Source: Escherichia phage radambza. Taken from it: DNA of 64,000 nucleotides. The position numbers were made by a program, and so were the translations under genes. The stretch lies in the sequence record MN850639.1; one strand, written 5' to 3'. Position 1 is the first letter of the stretch; every line of letters starts with the position of its first letter. Below are positions 4,074 through 21,933 of the stretch, one piece after another. The notes under the pieces were generated by a model that saw nothing but the letters and a program-made list of their open reading frames with translations, did no database searches and was not told where the DNA came from.

Positions 4074-4520
4074 TTAAACACTTGACGCTGGAATTGTAGA
4101 AGTGTAGTCTAGCTTCTCACAACCAAAAATCCAAGTTTTAGAGTTCTGGTCACGACCAAGTTCAATCTGCGGTAATTCCTGCAACCAAGCATTAATACCA
4201 GTTGCCAGAACAGAGCCTGATGGGTCGTAGATTACGAAGTTAGAAGAGATATCTTCTTCAAGTTCCATATTGTCTTGTTTAGCTTGAATTGCAGAAAGCA
4301 TCTGGTTAGAGAGAGAAGTCTGCATTAACTCAATCTCAATAGTACCTGTCTTGTCTGCATTTCTTGTCAGAGCAACTTGACCACCTGCACCAACAACTGG
4401 TGTCACAAGTGGTGATGTTCTCTGTAGACGCAAGAATGAATCTGGGGCAAAGCCTTCAATGGCAATACCATTCCAGCTACATACAACGTCTTTAGGGGAA
4501 TATTGCTGATACATAGCCAT
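4074..4520 (-). CDS. tail tube protein (putative)
   Basis: 148 aa, ATG start; position between sheath-sized gene and chaperones; size typical of myovirus tube proteins. Confidence 0.5.
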   Translation of the reverse strand: MAMYQQYSPKDVVCSWNGIAIEGFAPDSFLRLQRTSPLVTPVVGAGGQVALTRNADKTGTIEIELMQTSLSNQMLSAIQAKQDNMELEEDISSNFVIYDPSGSVLATGINAWLQELPQIELGRDQNSKTWIFGCEKLDYTSTIPASSV

Positions 4521-16147: not shown

Positions 16148-16178
16148 ATTTAAGGACTCTCGTAAGAATCCTTAGAAG

Positions 16179-18242: not shown

Positions 18243-18324
18243 TGGTCGAGGCGGCAGGACTCGAACCCGCATACTCCACTTACTCGGTTAACGGCGGTTT
18301 AGAAGACCGCTGAGATACGCCCCG
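18243..18324 (-). tRNA. tRNA-like element, atypical (anticodon-like loop TCT; no recognisable D arm; 23-nt variable region)
   Basis: Acceptor CGGGGCG/CGCCTCG, T-arm GCGGG/TTCGAGT/CCTGC, encoded CCA, perfect stem GCGGT/ACCGC with loop ctTCTaa, but only 7 nt between acceptor and that stem. Confidence 0.35.
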
Positions 18325-18572
18325 TAATTATCTTTAAAGACTCTCTTAGAAAGCCCTTAAAGATGCCCACTTTATTAATCATACCGTGGGCGAGTACGCC
18401 AAATTCTTTGATGAGGGATTGGAAGACCTCACTGGTGTTTAGCCTATCAAGCTACTGCCAGAAAAACATTGTCGTTTGCATTTATTTTAAATTTGCAAAA
18501 TAGACGCTACGCAACGAAAACTAAGGTTACTATAAAGTAGTCACATCTCAATGTCAACAACTTTATTGAAAG

Positions 18573-18647
18573 TGGTTGTAGGTGAGGGTATCGAACCCTC
18601 TTCTAACGGTTATCAGCCGTTTGCATTACCATTTATGCTAACCCACA
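18573..18647 (-). tRNA. tRNA-Ile (anticodon GAT)
   Basis: Perfect anticodon stem AACGG/CCGTT loop ctGATaa, T-arm GAGGG/TTCGATA/CCCTC, encoded CCA. Confidence 0.7.
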
Positions 18648-18649
18648 AT

Positions 18650-18726
18650 TGGAGGTTCAGGTGGGAATTGAACCCACATTCATAGGGCTTATGAAACCCT
18701 TGCATTACCTTATCTGCGACTGAACC
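18650..18726 (-). tRNA. tRNA-Met (anticodon CAT)
   Basis: Perfect acceptor GGTTCAG/CTGAACC, anticodon stem AGGGT/GCCCT (three G-C pairs) loop ttCATaa, T-arm GTGGG/TTCAATT/CCCAC, encoded CCA. Confidence 0.65.
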
Positions 18727-18730
18727 ATAT

Positions 18731-18806
18731 TGGTAGAAGTGGAGGGATTCGAACCCATCGCCTGTCAGATTAAAAGTCTGCCGCATCACCATTCTGCTAC
18801 ACTTCC
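18731..18806 (-). tRNA. tRNA-Lys (anticodon TTT)
   Basis: Acceptor GGAAGTG/CACTTCT, anticodon loop ctTTTaa, encoded CCA; paralog of 17498-17573. Confidence 0.6.
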
Positions 18807-18810
18807 ATTA

Positions 18811-18954
18811 AATTATCTTTGTAGATAAGCTACCCAGACTTGCTTAAGGTCTGTAGCGATGTGCCTTTTTGGGTTTAAATCTAGAATTTACCCTTTCACC
18901 CTTTGTGGTCGCATACTCACAGGTAAGCTTAATAACTTATCTACAAAGATAATT
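18811..18954. repeat. perfect 19-bp inverted repeat pair (18811-18829 and 18936-18954) flanking a 106-bp spacer
   Basis: AATTATCTTTGTAGATAAG and its exact reverse complement CTTATCTACAAAGATAATT; internal hairpin CAGAC-ttgcttaag-GTCTG. Confidence 0.6.
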
Positions 18955-19005
18955 ACCAGACCGTTGTTTATCATCTTAAGTGCTACCATTACACCAACTC
19001 GACAT

Positions 19006-19031
19006 CTGCCGAGTGAAGGAATCGAACCTTC
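19006..19031 (-). pseudogene. tRNA 3'-half-like fragment (T-arm plus acceptor 3' strand, no 5' partner)
   Basis: Perfect T-arm GAAGG/TTCGATT/CCTTC but no complementary acceptor 5' strand or anticodon arm within 100 nt. Confidence 0.3.
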
Positions 19032-19234
19032 GCCTTTTCTTTACCGAGAAATAGATTGTTTAAGTTTTGCTGTAAACGGTCTTCTGTAAATTTGTTGAGC
19101 CAGACCAAGTTTTAGATTTTCAAAATTAAATTGGCTTGAAATTTCATACGTTCTTGCTGTATTTGGTCTTCTGCTCCTTTAAAGAATACTCGTAAGAACT
19201 CTTTAAGGGAGGGGCTAAATAGCCCTCTCAAAAT

Positions 19235-19310
19235 TGGCGAGGTATGCGAGAATCGAACTCGCGGCTCAGGAGAGACAATCCCGTATTTTACCCATCTAAA
19301 CTAATACCCC
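19235..19310 (-). tRNA. tRNA-Asp (anticodon GTC)
   Basis: Acceptor GGGGTAT/ATACCTC, T-arm GCGAG/TTCGATT/CTCGC, anticodon loop ttGTCtc, discriminator G, encoded CCA. Confidence 0.7.
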
Positions 19311-19314
19311 AAAT

Positions 19315-19743
19315 TCATGTACCATTTCTTAGATACTTCTTCCTACGTCTTTCTGGACTATAGTTTCTTCTACTCTCAGCATTCTTAGCCAGCCTACACT
19401 CATCGCATCTACAGCCTTTAAAATAGCTATACGCAGTTCCGTGTTTAATTGTTTTATGTTTTCTTTCACTTATCTGTGCTGGTCTTGCTGCTTTCATGTT
19501 ACATTTAAGATGACTATAAGAAATATTATCTAGTGAAAAGAAAAGCTCTTTTGCATTCTCACTATGTCTCCACGGAATCTTATGCTCGATAGAGAAATCA
19601 TCCCTAGTCATTTCTTTTCCGCACTGAAAACATCTATTTTGATTTGTCTTACATATAAAATCGAATAGCAAATCTTTTACTAGTCTGTTTTGTGCAGTTC
19701 CCAAACTCATACCAAGTTGTGATTTGTATACTTCATCTCTCAT
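19315..19743 (-). CDS. HNH homing endonuclease
   Basis: CFQCGKEMTRDDFSIEHKIPWRHSEN...SHLKCN HNH motif; ORF-track start at 19836 overlaps tRNA-Tyr, trimmed to ATG at 19741-19743. Confidence 0.75.
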   Translation of the reverse strand: MRDEVYKSQLGMSLGTAQNRLVKDLLFDFICKTNQNRCFQCGKEMTRDDFSIEHKIPWRHSENAKELFFSLDNISYSHLKCNMKAARPAQISERKHKTIKHGTAYSYFKGCRCDECRLAKNAESRRNYSPERRRKKYLRNGT

Positions 19744-19765
19744 AACTAAGTATCTCGCTAAGTGT

Positions 19766-19853
19766 TGGTGTGCCGTGTAGGAGTCGAACCTACCGAGTCT
19801 CAATGACAAGGGATTTACAGTCCCCACCGCTACCATCTACGGGATAACGACAC
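19766..19853 (-). tRNA. tRNA-Tyr (anticodon GTA), type II
   Basis: Acceptor GTGTCGT/ACGGCAC, anticodon stem GGGGA/TCCCT loop ctGTAaa, long variable arm, T-arm GTAGG/TTCGACT/CCTAC, encoded CCA. Confidence 0.7.
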
Positions 19854-19864
19854 ATTTAATTTTG

Positions 19865-19938
19865 CGGTTAGTCAGGGATTCGAACCCTGTGCCATTCGCT
19901 TAACAGGCGACCGCACATACCTTATGTGCTTCCTAACC
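19865..19938 (-). tRNA. tRNA-Asn (anticodon GTT), CCA not encoded
   Basis: D-stem GCAC/GTGC, anticodon loop ctGTTaa, T-arm CAGGG/TTCGAAT/CCCTG. Confidence 0.6.
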
Positions 19939-20022
19939 ATATTTAGTATTACCAGACCGTATCTTTCAATTTTTTCCGCTAAAAATTTAATAAATGTTGC
20001 TGTAAACGGTCTTCTGTAAATT

Positions 20023-20099
20023 TGGAGGCGGGTGCAGGAGTCGAACCTGCCGATACCATGCTAATGAGACATGTGAGACGCCCTTTCTCTATACCCGCA
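20023..20099 (-). tRNA. tRNA with CAT anticodon (Met, initiator or Ile-lysidine type), unpaired 1:72
   Basis: Anticodon stem CATGT/GCATG loop ctCATta, T-arm GCAGG/TTCGACT/CCTGC, encoded CCA; first acceptor position U opposite C. Confidence 0.6.
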
Positions 20100-20190
20100 A
20101 TTCTTAATGACCAGACCAAATCTCTTCTTTGTCCGATTTACCTTCAGATGAATAAGATTAAGTTTGCTGTAATTGGTCTTCTGTCAAAAC

Positions 20191-20268
20191 TGGCGTTCCA
20201 GAAGGGATTTGAACCCTCAAATATCCACTTTGAAAGAGTGGTGACTATACCATTTTGTCTACTGGAAC
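20191..20268 (-). tRNA. tRNA-Glu (anticodon TTC)
   Basis: Perfect acceptor GTTCCAG/CTGGAAC, perfect anticodon stem CCACT/AGTGG loop ctTTCaa, encoded CCA. Confidence 0.7.
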
Positions 20269-20275
20269 ATTAATT

Positions 20276-20352
20276 TGGTCTCTGTTGGAGGACTTGAACC
20301 TCCGGCCTTACCGCCCCAAACGGAACGCTCTACCAAGCTGAGCTAAACAGAG
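20276..20352 (-). tRNA. tRNA-Pro (anticodon TGG)
   Basis: Perfect acceptor CTCTGTT/AACAGAG, D-stem GCTC/GAGC, anticodon loop ttTGGgg, T-arm GGAGG/TTCAAGT/CCTCC, encoded CCA. Confidence 0.65.
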
Positions 20353-20378
20353 ATAAACTTTTCAAACTCTATGTAACC

Positions 20379-20409
20379 ACTTTAACATTATTTTTTAGTG
20401 ATTGTCAAG
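20379..20409 (-). promoter_or_regulatory. candidate sigma70-type promoter for the tRNA cluster (minus strand)
   Basis: Minus-strand TTGACA, 17-19 nt spacer, then TAAAGT/TTAAAG, about 30 nt upstream of the first tRNA. Confidence 0.3.
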
Positions 20410-20517
20410 AACTTTTTTAAAATATTTTTCAGTATCTTAGAAAAGCTCTCGTTTCGTTTCTATGTAGAACATATTAAAGGGTATCAAACACATTGTCAAT
20501 ACCCTTTTTGAAACTTT

Positions 20518-21933
20518 TTACCAGATGTAACGGTCAATCATTACTGCTTTGAGCATTACGCTGATTGGGTCAAACTTCTCACCACCAAGCAGAGCTTTTA
20601 AAGTTGCTGGAGAGAAACCAGATACCATTGCTACACCGTTATCCTTAACAGACACTTCGCAAGTACCATTACGGTTTGCTAAGTACCAGAATACCAGTTG
20701 AGGCATTTCGTACCCAGCTTTTTTGTACTTACTCTGAATTGCTTCAAAGTTTGTACGACCGTTAGCTCCATCAACCTGATTGAACTCCATATCGGAGAAG
20801 ATGATAAGCTTACTTGGCATGTCTTTCTGAGTCAAGTTGTTTCTCTTACCTACCTCAAGAATGCGGTCAAAAGCTGCTTGTAAGTTAGTTGAGCCATATT
20901 CAACATGTCGCATCACCTGACGATGACGGTTTCGTAAATCACCACTCAGTTCGATGAAGTGAGGGTTTGTTGAATAAACCATTAACTCATCCTTGAAGCA
21001 ACCTGTATTGCGTTCTGCTACATACAAGGCAAGTGATACACCAATATCAAGGGCAGTGATTGAACCAAGATTCACCCAAGACATTGAGCTTGAAACATCA
21101 GTCATACACAGGATGTTTTCACCTTCTGCCATCCAGTTTGGTAGTGCTTTCCACTGCTCATTAGCAACATCTGCATTACCATACTTGATAGATTTAATCA
21201 CATCGTATGGGTAAACAGCACCAGCATTAATCTTAGCCTCACCTTTTGAGAGGGACTCGATGTAAGCTTTGTAACGCTCTCCATCTTTACGGTTAAACAG
21301 TTTTTGGTAACGTGCAGCAGCAAGTGAAGGAATCTTACTGTAGTCAATCTTACCAAACTCATTAGCAGAGATTTTTTGCTCAACTGTATCAGATAGTGCA
21401 GACAACAGTGTGCGGTACTCTTTCTCACTCAAGTTGGCAAACTTGCAGAAACGTTTTACAAACTGCTTATGACGTGGTTTGACTCGTGGTAACCACTTAG
21501 CCGCCAAGCCTGCTGTTGCAGGGTCTAGTAATGCTGCTTCTAAATGTTTGAAGGCATCTGTCTCGAAACGAGTACCTACAAAGATTTTGAAGTCATCAAA
21601 ACGACCAAGCTCTGCAATCTTATCCATAATGCGAAGAACCTGTGTAGGTTCTAAAACTTTATCTTCAATTGCTTGAAGTAAAACAGTTCGGAAAGCTTTA
21701 CGCTCACCCATACCTTCTCGTACATCTCGCATATGCAGTAAAATACGAACTGCAACATCAACATCCTCACGCAAAGCTTTGTAGAACAGGTCTGGTAAGA
21801 TTACTACATTGCTACGGCTCGAACCAGCAGCTTTGTAAAAGTCTACAAGAGCAGACATTGATGAAGTATGGTTTACAGCACCATTTTCAGTTCGACCTGC
21901 ATGAAGGTGCGCATGTTTAAATAATTCGCTCAT
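20518..21933 (-). CDS. von Willebrand factor A (vWA) domain protein with N-terminal helical domain
   Basis: 471 aa; MIDAS-like ILCMTDVSSSM at about residue 280 and later IIFSDMEF; N-terminal roughly 270 aa of unknown fold. Confidence 0.6.
   Translation of the reverse strand: MSELFKHAHLHAGRTENGAVNHTSSMSALVDFYKAAGSSRSNVVILPDLFYKALREDVDVAVRILLHMRDVREGMGERKAFRTVLLQAIEDKVLEPTQVLRIMDKIAELGRFDDFKIFVGTRFETDAFKHLEAALLDPATAGLAAKWLPRVKPRHKQFVKRFCKFANLSEKEYRTLLSALSDTVEQKISANEFGKIDYSKIPSLAAARYQKLFNRKDGERYKAYIESLSKGEAKINAGAVYPYDVIKSIKYGNADVANEQWKALPNWMAEGENILCMTDVSSSMSWVNLGSITALDIGVSLALYVAERNTGCFKDELMVYSTNPHFIELSGDLRNRHRQVMRHVEYGSTNLQAAFDRILEVGKRNNLTQKDMPSKLIIFSDMEFNQVDGANGRTNFEAIQSKYKKAGYEMPQLVFWYLANRNGTCEVSVKDNGVAMVSGFSPATLKALLGGEKFDPISVMLKAVMIDRYIW

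What the first reader, a model, noticed from the sequence alone, without database searches (positions are those of the whole stretch)
18811..18954. Perfect 19-bp inverted repeats bracketing a 106-bp spacer inside the tRNA cluster
AATTATCTTTGTAGATAAG at 18811-18829 is exactly reverse-complemented at 18936-18954. A 19-bp perfect inverted repeat is unlikely by chance in 64 kb. The enclosed 106 bp has its own hairpin (CAGAC...GTCTG) and CCCTTT repeats. Could be a long RNA stem-loop, a miniature inverted-repeat insertion, or a recombination site.
Basis: seen in the sequence. Interest (0 to 1): 0.45.

Follow-up and report, generated by a model that had tools for sequence, protein, structure and literature searches.

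The report
Stem of a phage non-coding RNA
The perfect 19-bp inverted repeat is the closing stem of a conserved, folded, roughly 144-nt RNA made together with the phage's tRNAs; it lies beside other RNA modules and a gene for a Ro60-like RNA-binding protein, so it probably belongs to an undescribed set of phage "Y RNA-like" partners of that protein.

Summary
AATTATCTTTGTAGATAAG (18811-18829) is exactly reverse-complemented at 18936-18954, occurs once in the window, and is far beyond chance.

It is not a mobile element or a recombination site. It is helix P1 of a ~144-nt structured RNA, here called "module E", read on the minus strand with the tRNA array. One copy sits just 5' of tRNA-Lys(UUU) in every relative examined but one, a deletion variant. 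These include distant phages whose arm sequences are unrelated but still pair over 18-24 bp. Of 19 modelled pairs, 16 show compensatory changes. G·U pairs fit only the tRNA strand.

The context matters more than the repeat. The same spacer region holds four modules (A-D) with a shared covarying stem followed by UAYAGCAA. Module D encloses a circularly permuted tRNA-like domain (T-arm, 7-bp acceptor-like hairpin, D-arm), the architecture of bacterial YrlA Y RNAs.

Directly upstream, on the same strand, is a 471-aa DUF2828/DUF7788 protein. Its predicted structure matches Ro60, and it is 98% identical to Bas63 gp130, a reported anti-Ppl factor.

That module E is a conserved RNA helix is well supported. 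That Ro60-like gp130 binds it is inferred. No Rfam family matches, and I found no description in the literature searched.

The parts
18811..18954 (-). Module E: the ~144-nt structured RNA bounded by the inverted repeat. It consists of outer helix P1 and inner hairpins P2, P3 and P4.
   Evidence: MFE -48.3 kcal/mol, z = -5.6. Covariance model R1 finds exactly one copy per phage, scoring 125-149 bits on the tRNA strand against 25-44 bits on the opposite strand. No Rfam match.
18936..18954 (-). P1 5' strand (AAUUAUCUUUGUAGAUAAG), one arm of the reported inverted repeat.
   Evidence: Covaries with the 3' strand across lineages.
18811..18829 (-). P1 3' strand (CUUAUCUACAAAGAUAAUU), the other arm.
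18900..18923 (-). P2: hairpin with a purine-rich GAGUAUGCG-type loop.
   Evidence: The stem differs between lineages while the loop is similar: GUG/CAC (window), CAU/AUG (type 2), GGGG/CCCC (L038). This helix is probable but was not formally tested.
18871..18893 (-). P3: hairpin whose tip carries a self-complementary hexamer (UCUAGA).
   Evidence: The tip is palindromic in most other lineages with a different sequence: ACUAGU in L038/L042 and AACGUU in L037/L041/L043; L040 has an ordinary hairpin there. Its meaning was not tested.
18830..18856 (-). P4: hairpin CUA-CAGAC-[CUUAAGCAA]-GUCUG-GG-UAG, next to the P1 3' strand. Its loop resembles the UAYAGCAA motif of modules A-D.
   Evidence: All 5 modelled pairs show compensatory changes. 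The GCAA-containing loop is kept in L037, L038 and L040-L042; in L043 it reads CUUGCACA.
18953..19089 (-). Module D: framework stem (UUAC-AGA-AGACCGU ... ACGGUCU-G-GUAA) enclosing a circularly permuted tRNA-like domain. The parts are V hairpin 19036-19052, T-arm 19015-19031, 7-bp acceptor-like hairpin 18997-19014 and D-arm 18980-18994.
   Evidence: The acceptor-like hairpin covaries fully: ACUCGGC/GUCGAGU, ACACGUU/GGCGUGU, ACCCUUC/GAAGGGU. ARAGORN calls the un-permuted pieces a tRNA, and does not when the arms are shuffled. The MFE of the whole spacer gives a cloverleaf-like fold.
19097..19176 (-). Module C: framework stem GAGC-AGA-AGACCAA + AUACAGCAA ... UUGGUCU-G-GCUC.
19949..20019 (-). Module B: framework stem UUAC-AGA-AGACCGU + UUACAGCAA ... 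ACGGUCU-G-GUAA, between tRNA-Met and tRNA-Asn.
   Evidence: The lower stem covaries with UUGC/GCAA in relatives.
20108..20186 (-). Module A: framework stem UGAC-AGA-AGACCAA + UUACAGCAA ... UUGGUCU-G-GUCA, between tRNA-Glu and tRNA-Met.
20518..21933 (-). Gene for a 471-aa Ro60-like protein (Pfam DUF2828 + DUF7788; PHROG 850 'RNA-binding protein'), 98% identical to Bas63 gp130.
   Evidence: Pfam and PHROGs. AlphaFold2 model with pLDDT 87. The top 11 Foldseek PDB hits are all Ro60/TROVE proteins, E 4e-9 to 1e-6, TM 0.53-0.65. A DxSxS MIDAS motif is invariant. Identity to bas63_0130 is, and the literature on gp130.
20379..20408 (-). Sigma-70-like promoter (TTGACA, 18-nt spacer, TG-extended TAAAGT) just upstream of tRNA-Pro. 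It is the predicted start of the transcript that carries modules A-E.
   Evidence: No other promoter-like or terminator-like site is found on the minus strand until 18557. This is a consensus match only.
18731..18806 (-). tRNA-Lys(UUU), always the gene immediately 3' of module E.

Best explanation
The inverted repeat is helix P1 of a ~144-nt structured non-coding RNA, module E, read on the minus strand. It is transcribed as part of the tRNA-array precursor, from the promoter at 20408-20379.

P1 is formed by the 5' and 3' ends of the module. It encloses three hairpins (P2-P4). P4 lies next to the P1 3' strand and presents a UUAAGCAA loop.

Module E is the last of five spacer RNA modules (A-E) in the array. 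Modules A-D share a covarying bipartite stem followed by UAYAGCAA. Module D encloses a permuted tRNA-like domain, as in YrlA Y RNAs.

The Ro60-like protein encoded directly upstream (the homologue of Bas63 gp130) is the most likely partner. The shared stem and GCAA element would be the protein-binding site. The differing parts (the tRNA-like domain in D; P2 and P3 in E) would be effector or tethering surfaces. This is how Y RNAs work with Ro60.

Shown here: the repeat; its RNA-level conservation and strand; the module family; the tRNA mimicry of module D; the Ro60-like fold of the protein; and the co-location of protein and modules in several phage lineages.

Inferred: transcription and processing into discrete RNAs; binding by the Ro60-like protein; and any role in countering host defence.
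For: - **Repeat.** It is real and non-random.
- **RNA helix.** On a model-guided alignment of 27 distinct sequences, 96.7% of cells pair, against 35-46% when partners are slid. 16 of 19 pairs have double-sided changes, and 0 of 500 shuffles reach the observed values.
- **P1 across lineages.** P1 is 18-24 bp in six lineages with largely unrelated arm sequences. Examples: window AAUUAUCUUUGUAGAUAAG, L037 UUUAUUUGAAGUGAGUCUUGUG, L043 UUUAUUUAAUGUAUCACCUGUG. In L040 it is about 20 bp, interrupted by small internal loops. Each P1 has 1-4 G·U pairs, which are valid only on the tRNA strand.
- **Strand.** The covariance model scores 125-149 bits on the tRNA strand and 25-44 bits on the other.
- **Copy number and position.** One copy per phage, always 3-14 nt 5' of tRNA-Lys(UUU).
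- **Framework modules.** There are 4 in the window, against 0.25 expected by chance. Lower stems covary and upper stems pair 7 of 7 in all but one of the variants tabulated.
- **Permuted tRNA-like domain.**
- **Protein.** The Foldseek top 11 hits are all Ro60/TROVE. It is 98% identical to Bas63 gp130, described as Ro60-like and as a counter of the Ppl defence system.
- **Co-location.** In 8 further loci (L036-L043), homologues of the protein sit directly upstream of a tRNA array on the same strand. In L047 the homologue lies about 3.4 kb downstream of a tRNA cluster on the same strand. GCAA-motif modules are seen in the spacers I inspected, including a 143-kb phage and a T4-like vibriophage.
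- **Fit to known YrlA rules.** YrlA RNAs lie within 4 kb of Ro60 on the same strand and have the order stem-V-T-AS-D-stem (PMC4201824).
Against: - There are no expression, processing or binding data for any module.
- The canonical Ro60-binding motif (GNCGAAN0-1G / CGAA) is absent from module E and from the framework stems.
- Rfam's YrlA model does not match any module.
- Module E lacks the tRNA-like domain. It was not found in the 143-kb phage that has the protein and A-D-type modules. Its link to the protein is therefore weaker than that of modules A-D.
- The P4 stem sequence is not the same as the A-D upper stem in all lineages; only the GCAA-containing loop is shared.
- One natural isolate (SP116) lacks module E and is viable.
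- The alignment used for the pair counts was fitted to the model, which biases the counts toward the structure.
Confidence: 0.6

Rival explanations
1. Processing signal only. P1 is a long double-stranded RNA segment in the tRNA-array precursor that host RNase III cuts, as happens with the stems flanking rRNAs and with phage T7 early transcripts. The cut would separate upstream modules from tRNA-Lys and help its maturation. The element would have no stable product and no link to the Ro60-like protein.
For: P1 is 18-24 bp and nearly uninterrupted in most lineages. That length suits RNase III, by general knowledge of the enzyme. The element always directly precedes a tRNA.
Against: A pure cleavage site does not need about 100 nt of conserved interior. 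P4 has five covarying pairs and a conserved loop. P2 keeps its loop while its stem changes. P3 keeps a palindromic tip. Other tRNA junctions in the same array have spacers of 2-10 nt with no such stem. This rival is also compatible with the best explanation, because RNase III could be the enzyme that releases module E.
Confidence: 0.2
2. A structured RNA with a function unrelated to Ro60. Examples would be a decoy or sponge for a host nuclease or defence sensor (tRNA-Lys-UUU is a classic anticodon-nuclease target), or a self-associating scaffold held together by the palindromic P3 loop.
For: Constant adjacency to tRNA-Lys(UUU). A self-complementary hexamer at the P3 tip is kept while its sequence changes: UCUAGA, ACUAGU, AACGUU. 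Module E is absent from one phage that has the protein and A-D-type modules.
Against: The P4 loop shares the GCAA-containing motif with modules A-D. Module E sits in the same transcription unit, within 3.2 kb of the Ro60-like gene on the same strand. There is no direct evidence for any decoy target. The 9-nt P4 loop is not an anticodon-loop mimic.
Confidence: 0.13
3. A DNA-level element: a miniature inverted-repeat transposable element, a recombination or inversion site, or a protein-binding palindrome or cruciform.
For: Perfect 19-bp terminal inverted repeats flank a short, non-coding interior. The interior comes in two versions within Felixounavirus, which could suggest cassette exchange.
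Against: The element is single-copy in the window and in every phage searched. It has the same insertion point across genera. No target-site duplication is seen. The arms change by compensatory substitutions and tolerate G·U pairs, which would be C·A mismatches in the opposite strand of a cruciform. A sequence-specific DNA site would keep its sequence rather than its pairing. The two interior versions are alignable homologues that share P3 and P4.
Confidence: 0.03
4. Protein-coding. Some GenBank records annotate short hypothetical CDSs on the opposite strand across this region. The window has a 76-aa ORF at 18859-19089 (+).
For: Annotations bas63_0137 and bas63_0138, L27 BBJ27057 and BBJ27058, and the ORF list.
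Against: Close relatives carry 1- and 2-nt indels inside the putative ORF (L012, L013, L027, L036). The substitution pattern preserves base pairing rather than codons. The ORF runs antisense through a T-arm and D-arm.
Confidence: 0.02

Closest known systems
Bacterial and phage Y RNAs of the YrlA type with Ro60/Rsr (Chen et al. 2014, PMC4201824; Thermus phage phiLo Ro60 with Yrl1/Yrl2, PMC12135203)
   Same: Small RNAs are encoded within a few kb of a Ro60-family gene on the same strand. Several RNAs share one stem or motif and differ elsewhere. The 5' and 3' ends pair to close each RNA. Module D has the same order of parts as YrlA: stem, V, T-arm, acceptor-like hairpin, D-arm, stem.
   Different: The protein is a divergent Ro60 homologue that matches DUF2828/DUF7788 rather than Pfam TROVE. 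The shared RNA motif is AGAAGACC..UAYAGCAA, not GNCGAAN0-1G / CGAA. The RNAs are embedded between tRNA genes of a phage tRNA array. Module E, the element in the finding, has no tRNA-like domain and a different architecture (P1-P4). The Rfam YrlA model does not match.
Bas63 (JohannRWettstein) gp130, reported as Ro60-like and as a counter of the Ppl defence system (PhageMaP preprint, 10.1101/2024.10.10.617714)
   Same: It is the same gene: 98% identical protein, in the same position upstream of the tRNA array.
   Different: [quoted passage not shown] The candidates found here are not the annotated tRNAs. They are the spacer modules between them, which Bas63's annotation covers with two small opposite-strand 'hypothetical protein' CDSs.
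Stable non-tRNA RNAs in phage tRNA clusters (T4 species 1 and 2 RNAs, rnaC and rnaD; cited from my own knowledge and not checked here)
   Same: Small structured RNAs co-transcribed with, and processed from, a phage tRNA cluster.
   Different: No sequence or structural relationship was tested. T4 has no Ro60-like gene as far as I know.
Large ornate phage-associated RNAs often found near tRNAs (ROOL, GOLLD)
   Same: Conserved, structured non-coding RNAs in phage genomes, placed next to tRNA genes.
   Different: Those are far larger, about 580-800 nt by my recollection, and have Rfam models. Neither matched here.
RNase III processing stems (rRNA operon stems, T7 early-region sites)
   Same: A double-stranded RNA stem of about 20 bp or more, formed by sequences that flank a unit inside a polycistronic precursor.
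   Different: Here the stem encloses a conserved multi-hairpin RNA rather than a gene. Cleavage is untested.

Membership tests
Y RNA / YrlA (Ro60-associated ncRNA) | Encoded close to a Ro60-family gene (within about 4 kb) on the same strand | tested here: met
   Module E lies 1.6-3.1 kb downstream of the Ro60-like gene (20518-21933), and both are on the minus strand. Modules A-D are closer still. The criterion comes from PMC4201824.
Y RNA / YrlA (Ro60-associated ncRNA) | 5' and 3' ends pair to form the closing stem of the RNA | tested here: met
   P1 has 19-24 bp with covariation. The true RNA ends are unknown.
Y RNA / YrlA (Ro60-associated ncRNA) | Ro60-binding motif GNCGAAN0-1G / GGUCCGA-type bulged helix near the 5' end | tested here: not met
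   The motif is absent from module E in the window and in nearly all relatives, and from the framework stems. The only window hit (GGCGAAGG at 19034) is at the V/T-arm junction of module D and is not conserved in other lineages.
Y RNA / YrlA (Ro60-associated ncRNA) | tRNA-like domain with T-arm, acceptor-like stem-loop and D-arm, in that order | tested here: not met
   Not present in module E. It is present in the adjacent module D, so module D meets this feature and module E does not.
Y RNA / YrlA (Ro60-associated ncRNA) | Match to the Rfam covariance model RF02553 (YrlA) | tested here: not met
   No YrlA hit over 18790-19250 at E <= 10. The only YrlA hit in the cluster (17.3 bits, E 9.1) lies over two ordinary tRNAs.
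Y RNA / YrlA (Ro60-associated ncRNA) | Physically bound by the Ro60 protein | not testable with these tools
   Requires RIP, CLIP or EMSA with gp130.
Ro60 / TROVE protein family (for the neighbouring gene) | HEAT-repeat ring plus a C-terminal von Willebrand A domain with a MIDAS motif | tested here: met
   The AF2 model (pLDDT 87) has helical repeats at 28-263 and an alpha/beta domain at 274-471. It aligns over its full length to Ro60 structures 2i91, 1yvp, 2nvo, 9l5y and 9kop. D279-x-S281-x-S283 is invariant in 40 homologues.
Ro60 / TROVE protein family (for the neighbouring gene) | Sequence-level match to TROVE or to Ro60 chains | tested here: not met
   Pfam gives DUF2828 + DUF7788, not TROVE. 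phmmer and a 40-sequence profile against PDB sequences find no Ro60. The similarity is detectable only by structure.
Miniature inverted-repeat transposable element | Multiple dispersed copies, target-site duplication, and presence/absence polymorphism by insertion or excision | tested here: not met
   One copy per genome. Flanks ...GGTCTGGT | E | TAATGG... show no duplication. The only absence (SP116) is a larger deletion between two T-arm repeats.
Intrinsic transcription terminator | Short GC-rich hairpin followed by a U-tract | tested here: not met
   No terminator-like site on the minus strand in 18400-20500. P1 is AU-rich, has a 96-106-nt interior, and is followed by UUAAUGG.
RNase III substrate | About two turns of near-perfect double-stranded RNA; cleavage by RNase III | tested here: inconclusive
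   The length criterion is met. Cleavage cannot be tested here.
Any Rfam 15 family | Covariance-model match | tested here: not met
   Over 18790-19250, only a partial tRNA T-arm hit and three chance-level hits at E 7-10.

The most novel reading that the evidence does not exclude
Felix O1-like and related phages carry, inside their tRNA arrays, an undescribed family of Y RNA-like molecules. There are four stem-plus-UAYAGCAA modules, one of which is a permuted tRNA mimic, plus the inverted-repeat element as a fifth member with a new architecture. These RNAs would load onto the divergent Ro60 homologue gp130 (DUF2828) and form the RNA half of an anti-defence ribonucleoprotein, gp130 being a reported counter of the Ppl system. 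The inverted-repeat element might additionally dimerise through its palindromic P3 loop, or couple the complex to tRNA-Lys(UUU).
Probability: 0.4. Interest if true: 0.8.

Novelty: new variant of a known kind. Interest (0 to 1): 0.62.

Why it matters
Ro60-Y RNA particles are well studied in animals and in a few bacteria. In phages, only canonical TROVE proteins with YrlA-like RNAs have been described.

The DUF2828-type Ro60 homologue is very common in phages: more than 2,800 database hits here. In Bas63 it is already linked to escape from a host defence system, but its RNA partners are unknown.

This locus supplies concrete candidates with defined coordinates, predicted structures and testable motifs. 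Those candidates are currently annotated as empty spacers, as spurious small ORFs, or as an odd "tRNA-Thr".

If the RNAs bind gp130, two things follow. It would show how a phage tRNA array doubles as a source of regulatory or anti-defence RNPs. It would also reveal a new RNA-recognition code for the Ro60 fold.

Even if the Ro60 link fails, the inverted-repeat element is a well-supported new structured RNA family that could be added to Rfam and used to correct phage annotations.

Tried and rejected
- **Rfam.** I searched the tRNA cluster and the Asp-Lys spacer at E <= 10. Nothing matched module E or modules A-D.
- **Broken or intron-containing tRNA in the spacer.** ARAGORN finds nothing there. 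The 129-nt 'tRNA-Thr-GGT' that tRNAscan-SE calls in some GenBank records needs a poor acceptor stem. It is better explained as the T-arm of module D.
- **Remnant of two tandem tRNAs.** I considered that T-arm, acceptor 3' strand, acceptor 5' strand and D-arm might be such a remnant. I rejected this because the two 'acceptor' strands covary as one 7-bp hairpin in three versions.
- **Two-piece (permuted) tmRNA.** Rejected: there is no tag reading frame, the D-arm is a real stem, and the weak Rfam tmRNA hits lie elsewhere.
- **Sequence searches against the PDB.** A single-sequence search and a profile search with the protein found no Ro60. Only the structure comparison did.
- **RNAalifold on the plain MAFFT alignment.** It recovered only P4, because indels misalign P1 between lineages. 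I therefore built a covariance model and realigned. I removed these by tightening the E-value threshold.
- **Literature.** Searches for DUF2828, for Felixounavirus non-coding RNA and for Ro60 with Bas63 found only the PhageMaP preprint's brief remark.
- **PhageMaP supplements.** The supplementary fitness tables, which might show a phenotype for the CDSs overlying modules D and E, are not held in the library.
- **P4 as an anticodon-arm mimic.** I looked for a resemblance between P4 and the tRNA-Lys anticodon arm. I judged it coincidental: the loop has 9 nt, and the P4 stem changes in L038.
Full report
**1.

The window is a Felix O1-like phage (Felixounavirus): 255 phage records match this region. 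AATTATCTTTGTAGATAAG at 18811-18829 is exactly reverse-complemented at 18936-18954. Even with 3 mismatches allowed, these are the only two occurrences in 64 kb. The chance expectation is 0.05, and 0 of 100 shuffles gave two matches.

All 24 tRNA genes that ARAGORN finds lie on the minus strand. The repeat lies in a 428-nt gap between tRNA-Asp (19235-19310) and tRNA-Lys-UUU (18731-18806).

**2. It is an RNA helix, not a DNA element**

The whole Asp-Lys gap is conserved in Felixounavirus, Mooglevirus and Suspvirus. Within the repeat, relatives show paired changes. The window's GUAGAUAAG/CUUAUCUAC is GCAG-UAGC/GGUUACUGC in others. Arm position 4 runs U-A, then U·G, then C-G.

I located homologues of the upstream protein in metagenomic and GenBank contigs. 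In those contigs I found the same element in much more distant phages. In each case it sits 3-14 nt 5' of tRNA-Lys(UUU), with largely unrelated arm sequences that still form 18-24 bp. Examples are L038 AUUAUUCUUGUAAGUAAGCUGUU, L037 UUUAUUUGAAGUGAGUCUUGUG, L041 UCUAUUUAAUGGGUGUUCUGUG and L043 UUUAUUUAAUGUAUCACCUGUG. In L040 the helix is about 20 bp, interrupted by small internal loops.

Each helix contains 1-4 G·U pairs. These would be C·A mismatches on the other strand.

I built a covariance model from 27 distinct sequences, using 14 P1 pairs and 5 P4 pairs. It finds exactly one copy per phage. It scores 125-149 bits on the tRNA strand against 25-44 bits on the opposite strand.

On the model-guided alignment:
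- 96.7% of cells form standard pairs, against 35-46% when partners are slid by 1-3 columns.
- 16 of 19 pairs have changes on both sides.
- No shuffle out of 500 reaches the observed values.

The alignment is fitted to the model, which favours the structure. The unaligned per-lineage arms show the same thing independently.

RNAalifold on a plain MAFFT alignment independently recovers P4, with 7 of its 8 predicted pairs compensated.

The single-sequence fold has -48.3 kcal/mol and z = -5.6.

**3. Anatomy of the element ("module E", minus strand)**

- **P1**, 18954-18936 with 18829-18811: 19 perfect pairs, extendable to 24 with G·U pairs.
- **P2**, 18923-18900: its loop GAGUAUGCG is similar across lineages while the stem changes (GUG/CAC, CAU/AUG, GGGG/CCCC).
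- **P3**, 18893-18871: its tip carries a self-complementary hexamer, UCUAGA here, ACUAGU in L038/L042 and AACGUU in L037/L041/L043.
- **P4**, 18856-18830: CAGAC-[CUUAAGCAA]-GUCUG, directly abutting the P1 3' strand.

P1 and P4 are formally supported. P2 and P3 are probable.

The interior exists in two alignable versions within Felixounavirus. This accounts for the partial BLAST coverage in some records.

**4. What the neighbourhood shows**

*Framework modules.* The string CAGAAGACC-NNN-TACAGCAA occurs four times in the window. All four are on the minus strand and all lie between tRNAs. Chance would give 0.25.

Each copy is the 5' side of a module closed by NN-GGUCU-G-NNNN. The structure is a 4-bp lower stem, an AGA/G internal loop, a 7-bp upper stem, then UAYAGCAA and a variable insert.

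Across about 40 loci, the upper stem pairs 7 of 7 in all but one of the variants tabulated. The lower stem covaries: UGAC/GUCA, UUAC/GUAA, UUGC/GCAA, GAGC/GCUC, GAGC/GUUC and GGGC/GUCC.

*Module D.* Module D (19089-18953) ends where module E begins. Its lower-stem 3' strand overlaps P1 by 2 nt. Its insert contains, in order:
- a T-arm, GAAGGUUCGAUUCCUUC;
- a 7-bp acceptor-like hairpin that covaries completely in three versions;
- UG;
- a D-arm, GUGUAAUGGUAGCAC.

When I un-permuted these pieces and supplied a borrowed anticodon arm, ARAGORN called them tRNAs. With the arms shuffled it did not. The minimum-energy fold of the whole spacer reproduces modules C, D and E (z = -4.6).

This stem, V, T, acceptor-like, D, stem order is the published architecture of YrlA Y RNAs (PMC4201824).

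*The upstream gene.* A 471-aa ORF lies directly upstream on the same strand (21933-20518).
- It matches Pfam DUF2828 + DUF7788 and PHROG 850, 'RNA-binding protein'.
- Sequence searches against the PDB find nothing.
- An AlphaFold2 model built from 40 homologues has pLDDT 87. It shows helical repeats followed by an alpha/beta domain with an invariant DxSxS motif.
- Its 11 best Foldseek matches in the PDB are all Ro60/TROVE proteins: Xenopus and human Ro60, Deinococcus Rsr and Thermus phage phiLo Ro60. E-values run from 4e-9 to 1e-6 and TM-scores from 0.53 to 0.65, over the full length.
- The protein is 98% identical to Bas63 gp130.

*Transcription unit.* A TG-extended sigma-70-like promoter lies at 20408-20379. 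No other promoter-like or terminator-like site is found on the minus strand before 18557. Modules A-E are therefore predicted to be made on one precursor together with nine tRNAs.

**5. The association between protein and modules is general**

In 8 further loci that carry homologues of the protein (98% down to 51% identity, L036-L043), the gene sits directly upstream of a tRNA array on the same strand. In L047 (46% identity) it lies about 3.4 kb downstream of a tRNA cluster on the same strand.

- **143-kb phage (L039).** The 690 nt between the gene and the first tRNA hold five stem + UAYAGCAA modules. Three of them enclose T-arm / 7-bp hairpin / D-arm domains.
- **Yersinia phage P778 (L037).** It has modules built on AGGAYU-type stems.
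- **T4-like Vibrio phage phi-pp2 (L047).** A ~250-nt module closed by AAGACAUU/AAUGUCU and carrying GUACAGCAA follows a tRNA about 3.4 kb upstream of the gene.

Module E itself has a narrower range. It occurs in Ounavirinae and in P778-like phages, and was not found in L039.

**6. How it most likely works**

*Shown.* Module E is a conserved, strand-specific, multi-helix RNA structure. Its closing stem is the reported repeat. It lies in a tRNA transcription unit next to a family of covarying modules, a tRNA mimic, and a gene for a protein with the Ro60 fold.

*Inferred.* The precursor would be processed into discrete RNAs. RNase P and RNase Z would act at the tRNAs, and RNase III might act at P1. 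The shared stem/GCAA element would be the binding site for the Ro60-like protein, by analogy with the short 5' motif that YrlA and YrlB share. The differing parts (the tRNA-like domain in D; P2 and P3 in E) would recruit or occlude other factors, as Y RNAs do for PNPase.

I put about 0.9 on 'conserved structured RNA helix on the tRNA strand'. I put about 0.5 on 'partner of the Ro60-like protein'. Hence 0.6 for the combined statement.

**7. Rivals**

- **RNase III processing stem only.** The stem length fits, but the conserved interior is left unexplained.
- **Ro60-independent RNA (decoy or scaffold).** This is possible, given the constant adjacency to tRNA-Lys(UUU) and the palindromic P3 tip.
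- **MITE or recombination site.** Rejected: single copy, fixed position, no target duplication, pairing conserved rather than sequence, and G·U pairs present.
- **Small ORFs, as annotated in some records.** Rejected because of frameshifting indels among close relatives.

**8. Comparison with known families**

*Works like.* A Y RNA: closing stem, shared motif plus variable module, next to Ro60 on the same strand.

*Membership.* Module E fails three YrlA criteria that I tested: the GNCGAA motif, the tRNA-like domain, and the Rfam model. I therefore do not file it as YrlA. Module D meets the architectural criterion but also fails the motif and Rfam tests.

*The protein.* It is a structural Ro60 homologue but not a Pfam TROVE member.

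**9. Natural variants**

- **SP116.** It has lost the acceptor-like hairpin, the D-arm, module E and most of tRNA-Lys, through recombination between the T-arm of module D and that of tRNA-Lys. Module E is therefore dispensable for growth on that phage's host.
- **ESCO56.** It keeps module E but has lost modules D and C and tRNA-Asp.

**10. Verdict**

The finding is real, and its 'RNA stem-loop' reading is right. The more interesting result is the surrounding, apparently undescribed set of Ro60-associated RNA modules in a very common phage group.

- Novelty: new variant of a known kind.
- Interest: 0.62.

Noticed in passing
window 20108-20186, 19949-20019, 19097-19176, 18953-19089 (all minus strand): Four spacer modules (A-D) between tRNAs share the same build: a 4-bp covarying lower stem, an AGA/G internal loop, a 7-bp upper stem (AGACCNN/NNGGUCU), then UAYAGCAA and a variable insert. 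Similar modules occur next to DUF2828 genes in a 143-kb phage, Yersinia phage P778 and Vibrio phage phi-pp2.
   Followed up: yes
window 18980-19052 (minus), inside module D: A circularly permuted tRNA-like domain: V hairpin, T-arm, 7-bp acceptor-like hairpin with an AGAU loop, then D-arm. ARAGORN accepts it as a tRNA once un-permuted. [quoted passage not shown]
   Followed up: yes
window 20518-21933 (minus): A 471-aa DUF2828 + DUF7788 protein whose predicted structure matches Ro60/TROVE and which carries a vWA MIDAS motif. It is 98% identical to Bas63 gp130, a reported counter of the Ppl defence system. It has more than 2,800 homologues, mostly in phage contigs. In 8 further loci examined the homologue is directly upstream of a tRNA array; in a ninth (L047) it is about 3.4 kb downstream of one.
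   Followed up: yes
window 18871-18893 (minus); L038 8340-8365; L037, L041 and L043 equivalents: The tip of hairpin P3 keeps a self-complementary hexamer whose sequence differs between lineages (UCUAGA, ACUAGU, AACGUU). This suggests loop-loop dimerisation. L040 has an ordinary hairpin at this position.
   Followed up: partly
window 18953-18956 versus 18953-18954: The 3' strand of module D's lower stem (GUAA) overlaps the first two nucleotides of P1 (AA). The two helices therefore compete for 2 bp, or the RNAs are cut apart.
   Followed up: no
L044 (Salmonella phage SP116, NC_027329) 686-921: A natural deletion joins the T-arm of module D to the T-arm and 3' end of tRNA-Lys. It removes the acceptor-like hairpin, the D-arm, module E and most of tRNA-Lys. 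The T-arm repeats in the array therefore act as recombination substrates.
   Followed up: yes
window 19315-19836 (minus): An HNH endonuclease ORF (weak Pfam HNH hit) is inserted between tRNA-Tyr and tRNA-Asp. Relatives such as Bas63 have the two tRNAs adjacent, while pSJ21, HMD-P8 and 35FD also carry an HNH gene there. This looks like a homing-endonuclease presence/absence polymorphism. The longest ORF overlaps the 3' part of tRNA-Tyr.
   Followed up: partly
window 19176-19229, 18333-18357, 16149-16173 (minus): A repeated family of stable hairpins with UUACGAG-type loops, for example CCUUAAAGAGUUCUUACGAGUAUUCUUUAAAGG just after tRNA-Asp. Related hairpins occur in Yersinia phage P778. Their function is unknown; they may act as processing or stability elements.
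   Followed up: no
window 18246-18324 (minus): Rfam's tRNA model scores 31.7 bits here, just above the gathering threshold, but ARAGORN calls no tRNA. Bas63 annotates a tRNA-Arg(AGA) at the equivalent position. Weak tmRNA and permuted-tmRNA hits at 18326-18630 look like by-products of tRNA-like pieces.
   Followed up: no
L036 (Bas63) 4079-4353; L009 (phage L27) 489-834: GenBank records annotate short 'hypothetical protein' CDSs over modules D and E: bas63_0137 and bas63_0138 on the strand opposite the tRNAs, BBJ27057 and BBJ27058 on the tRNA strand. Close relatives have frameshifting indels there, so these are very likely mis-annotations of the RNA modules.
   Followed up: partly
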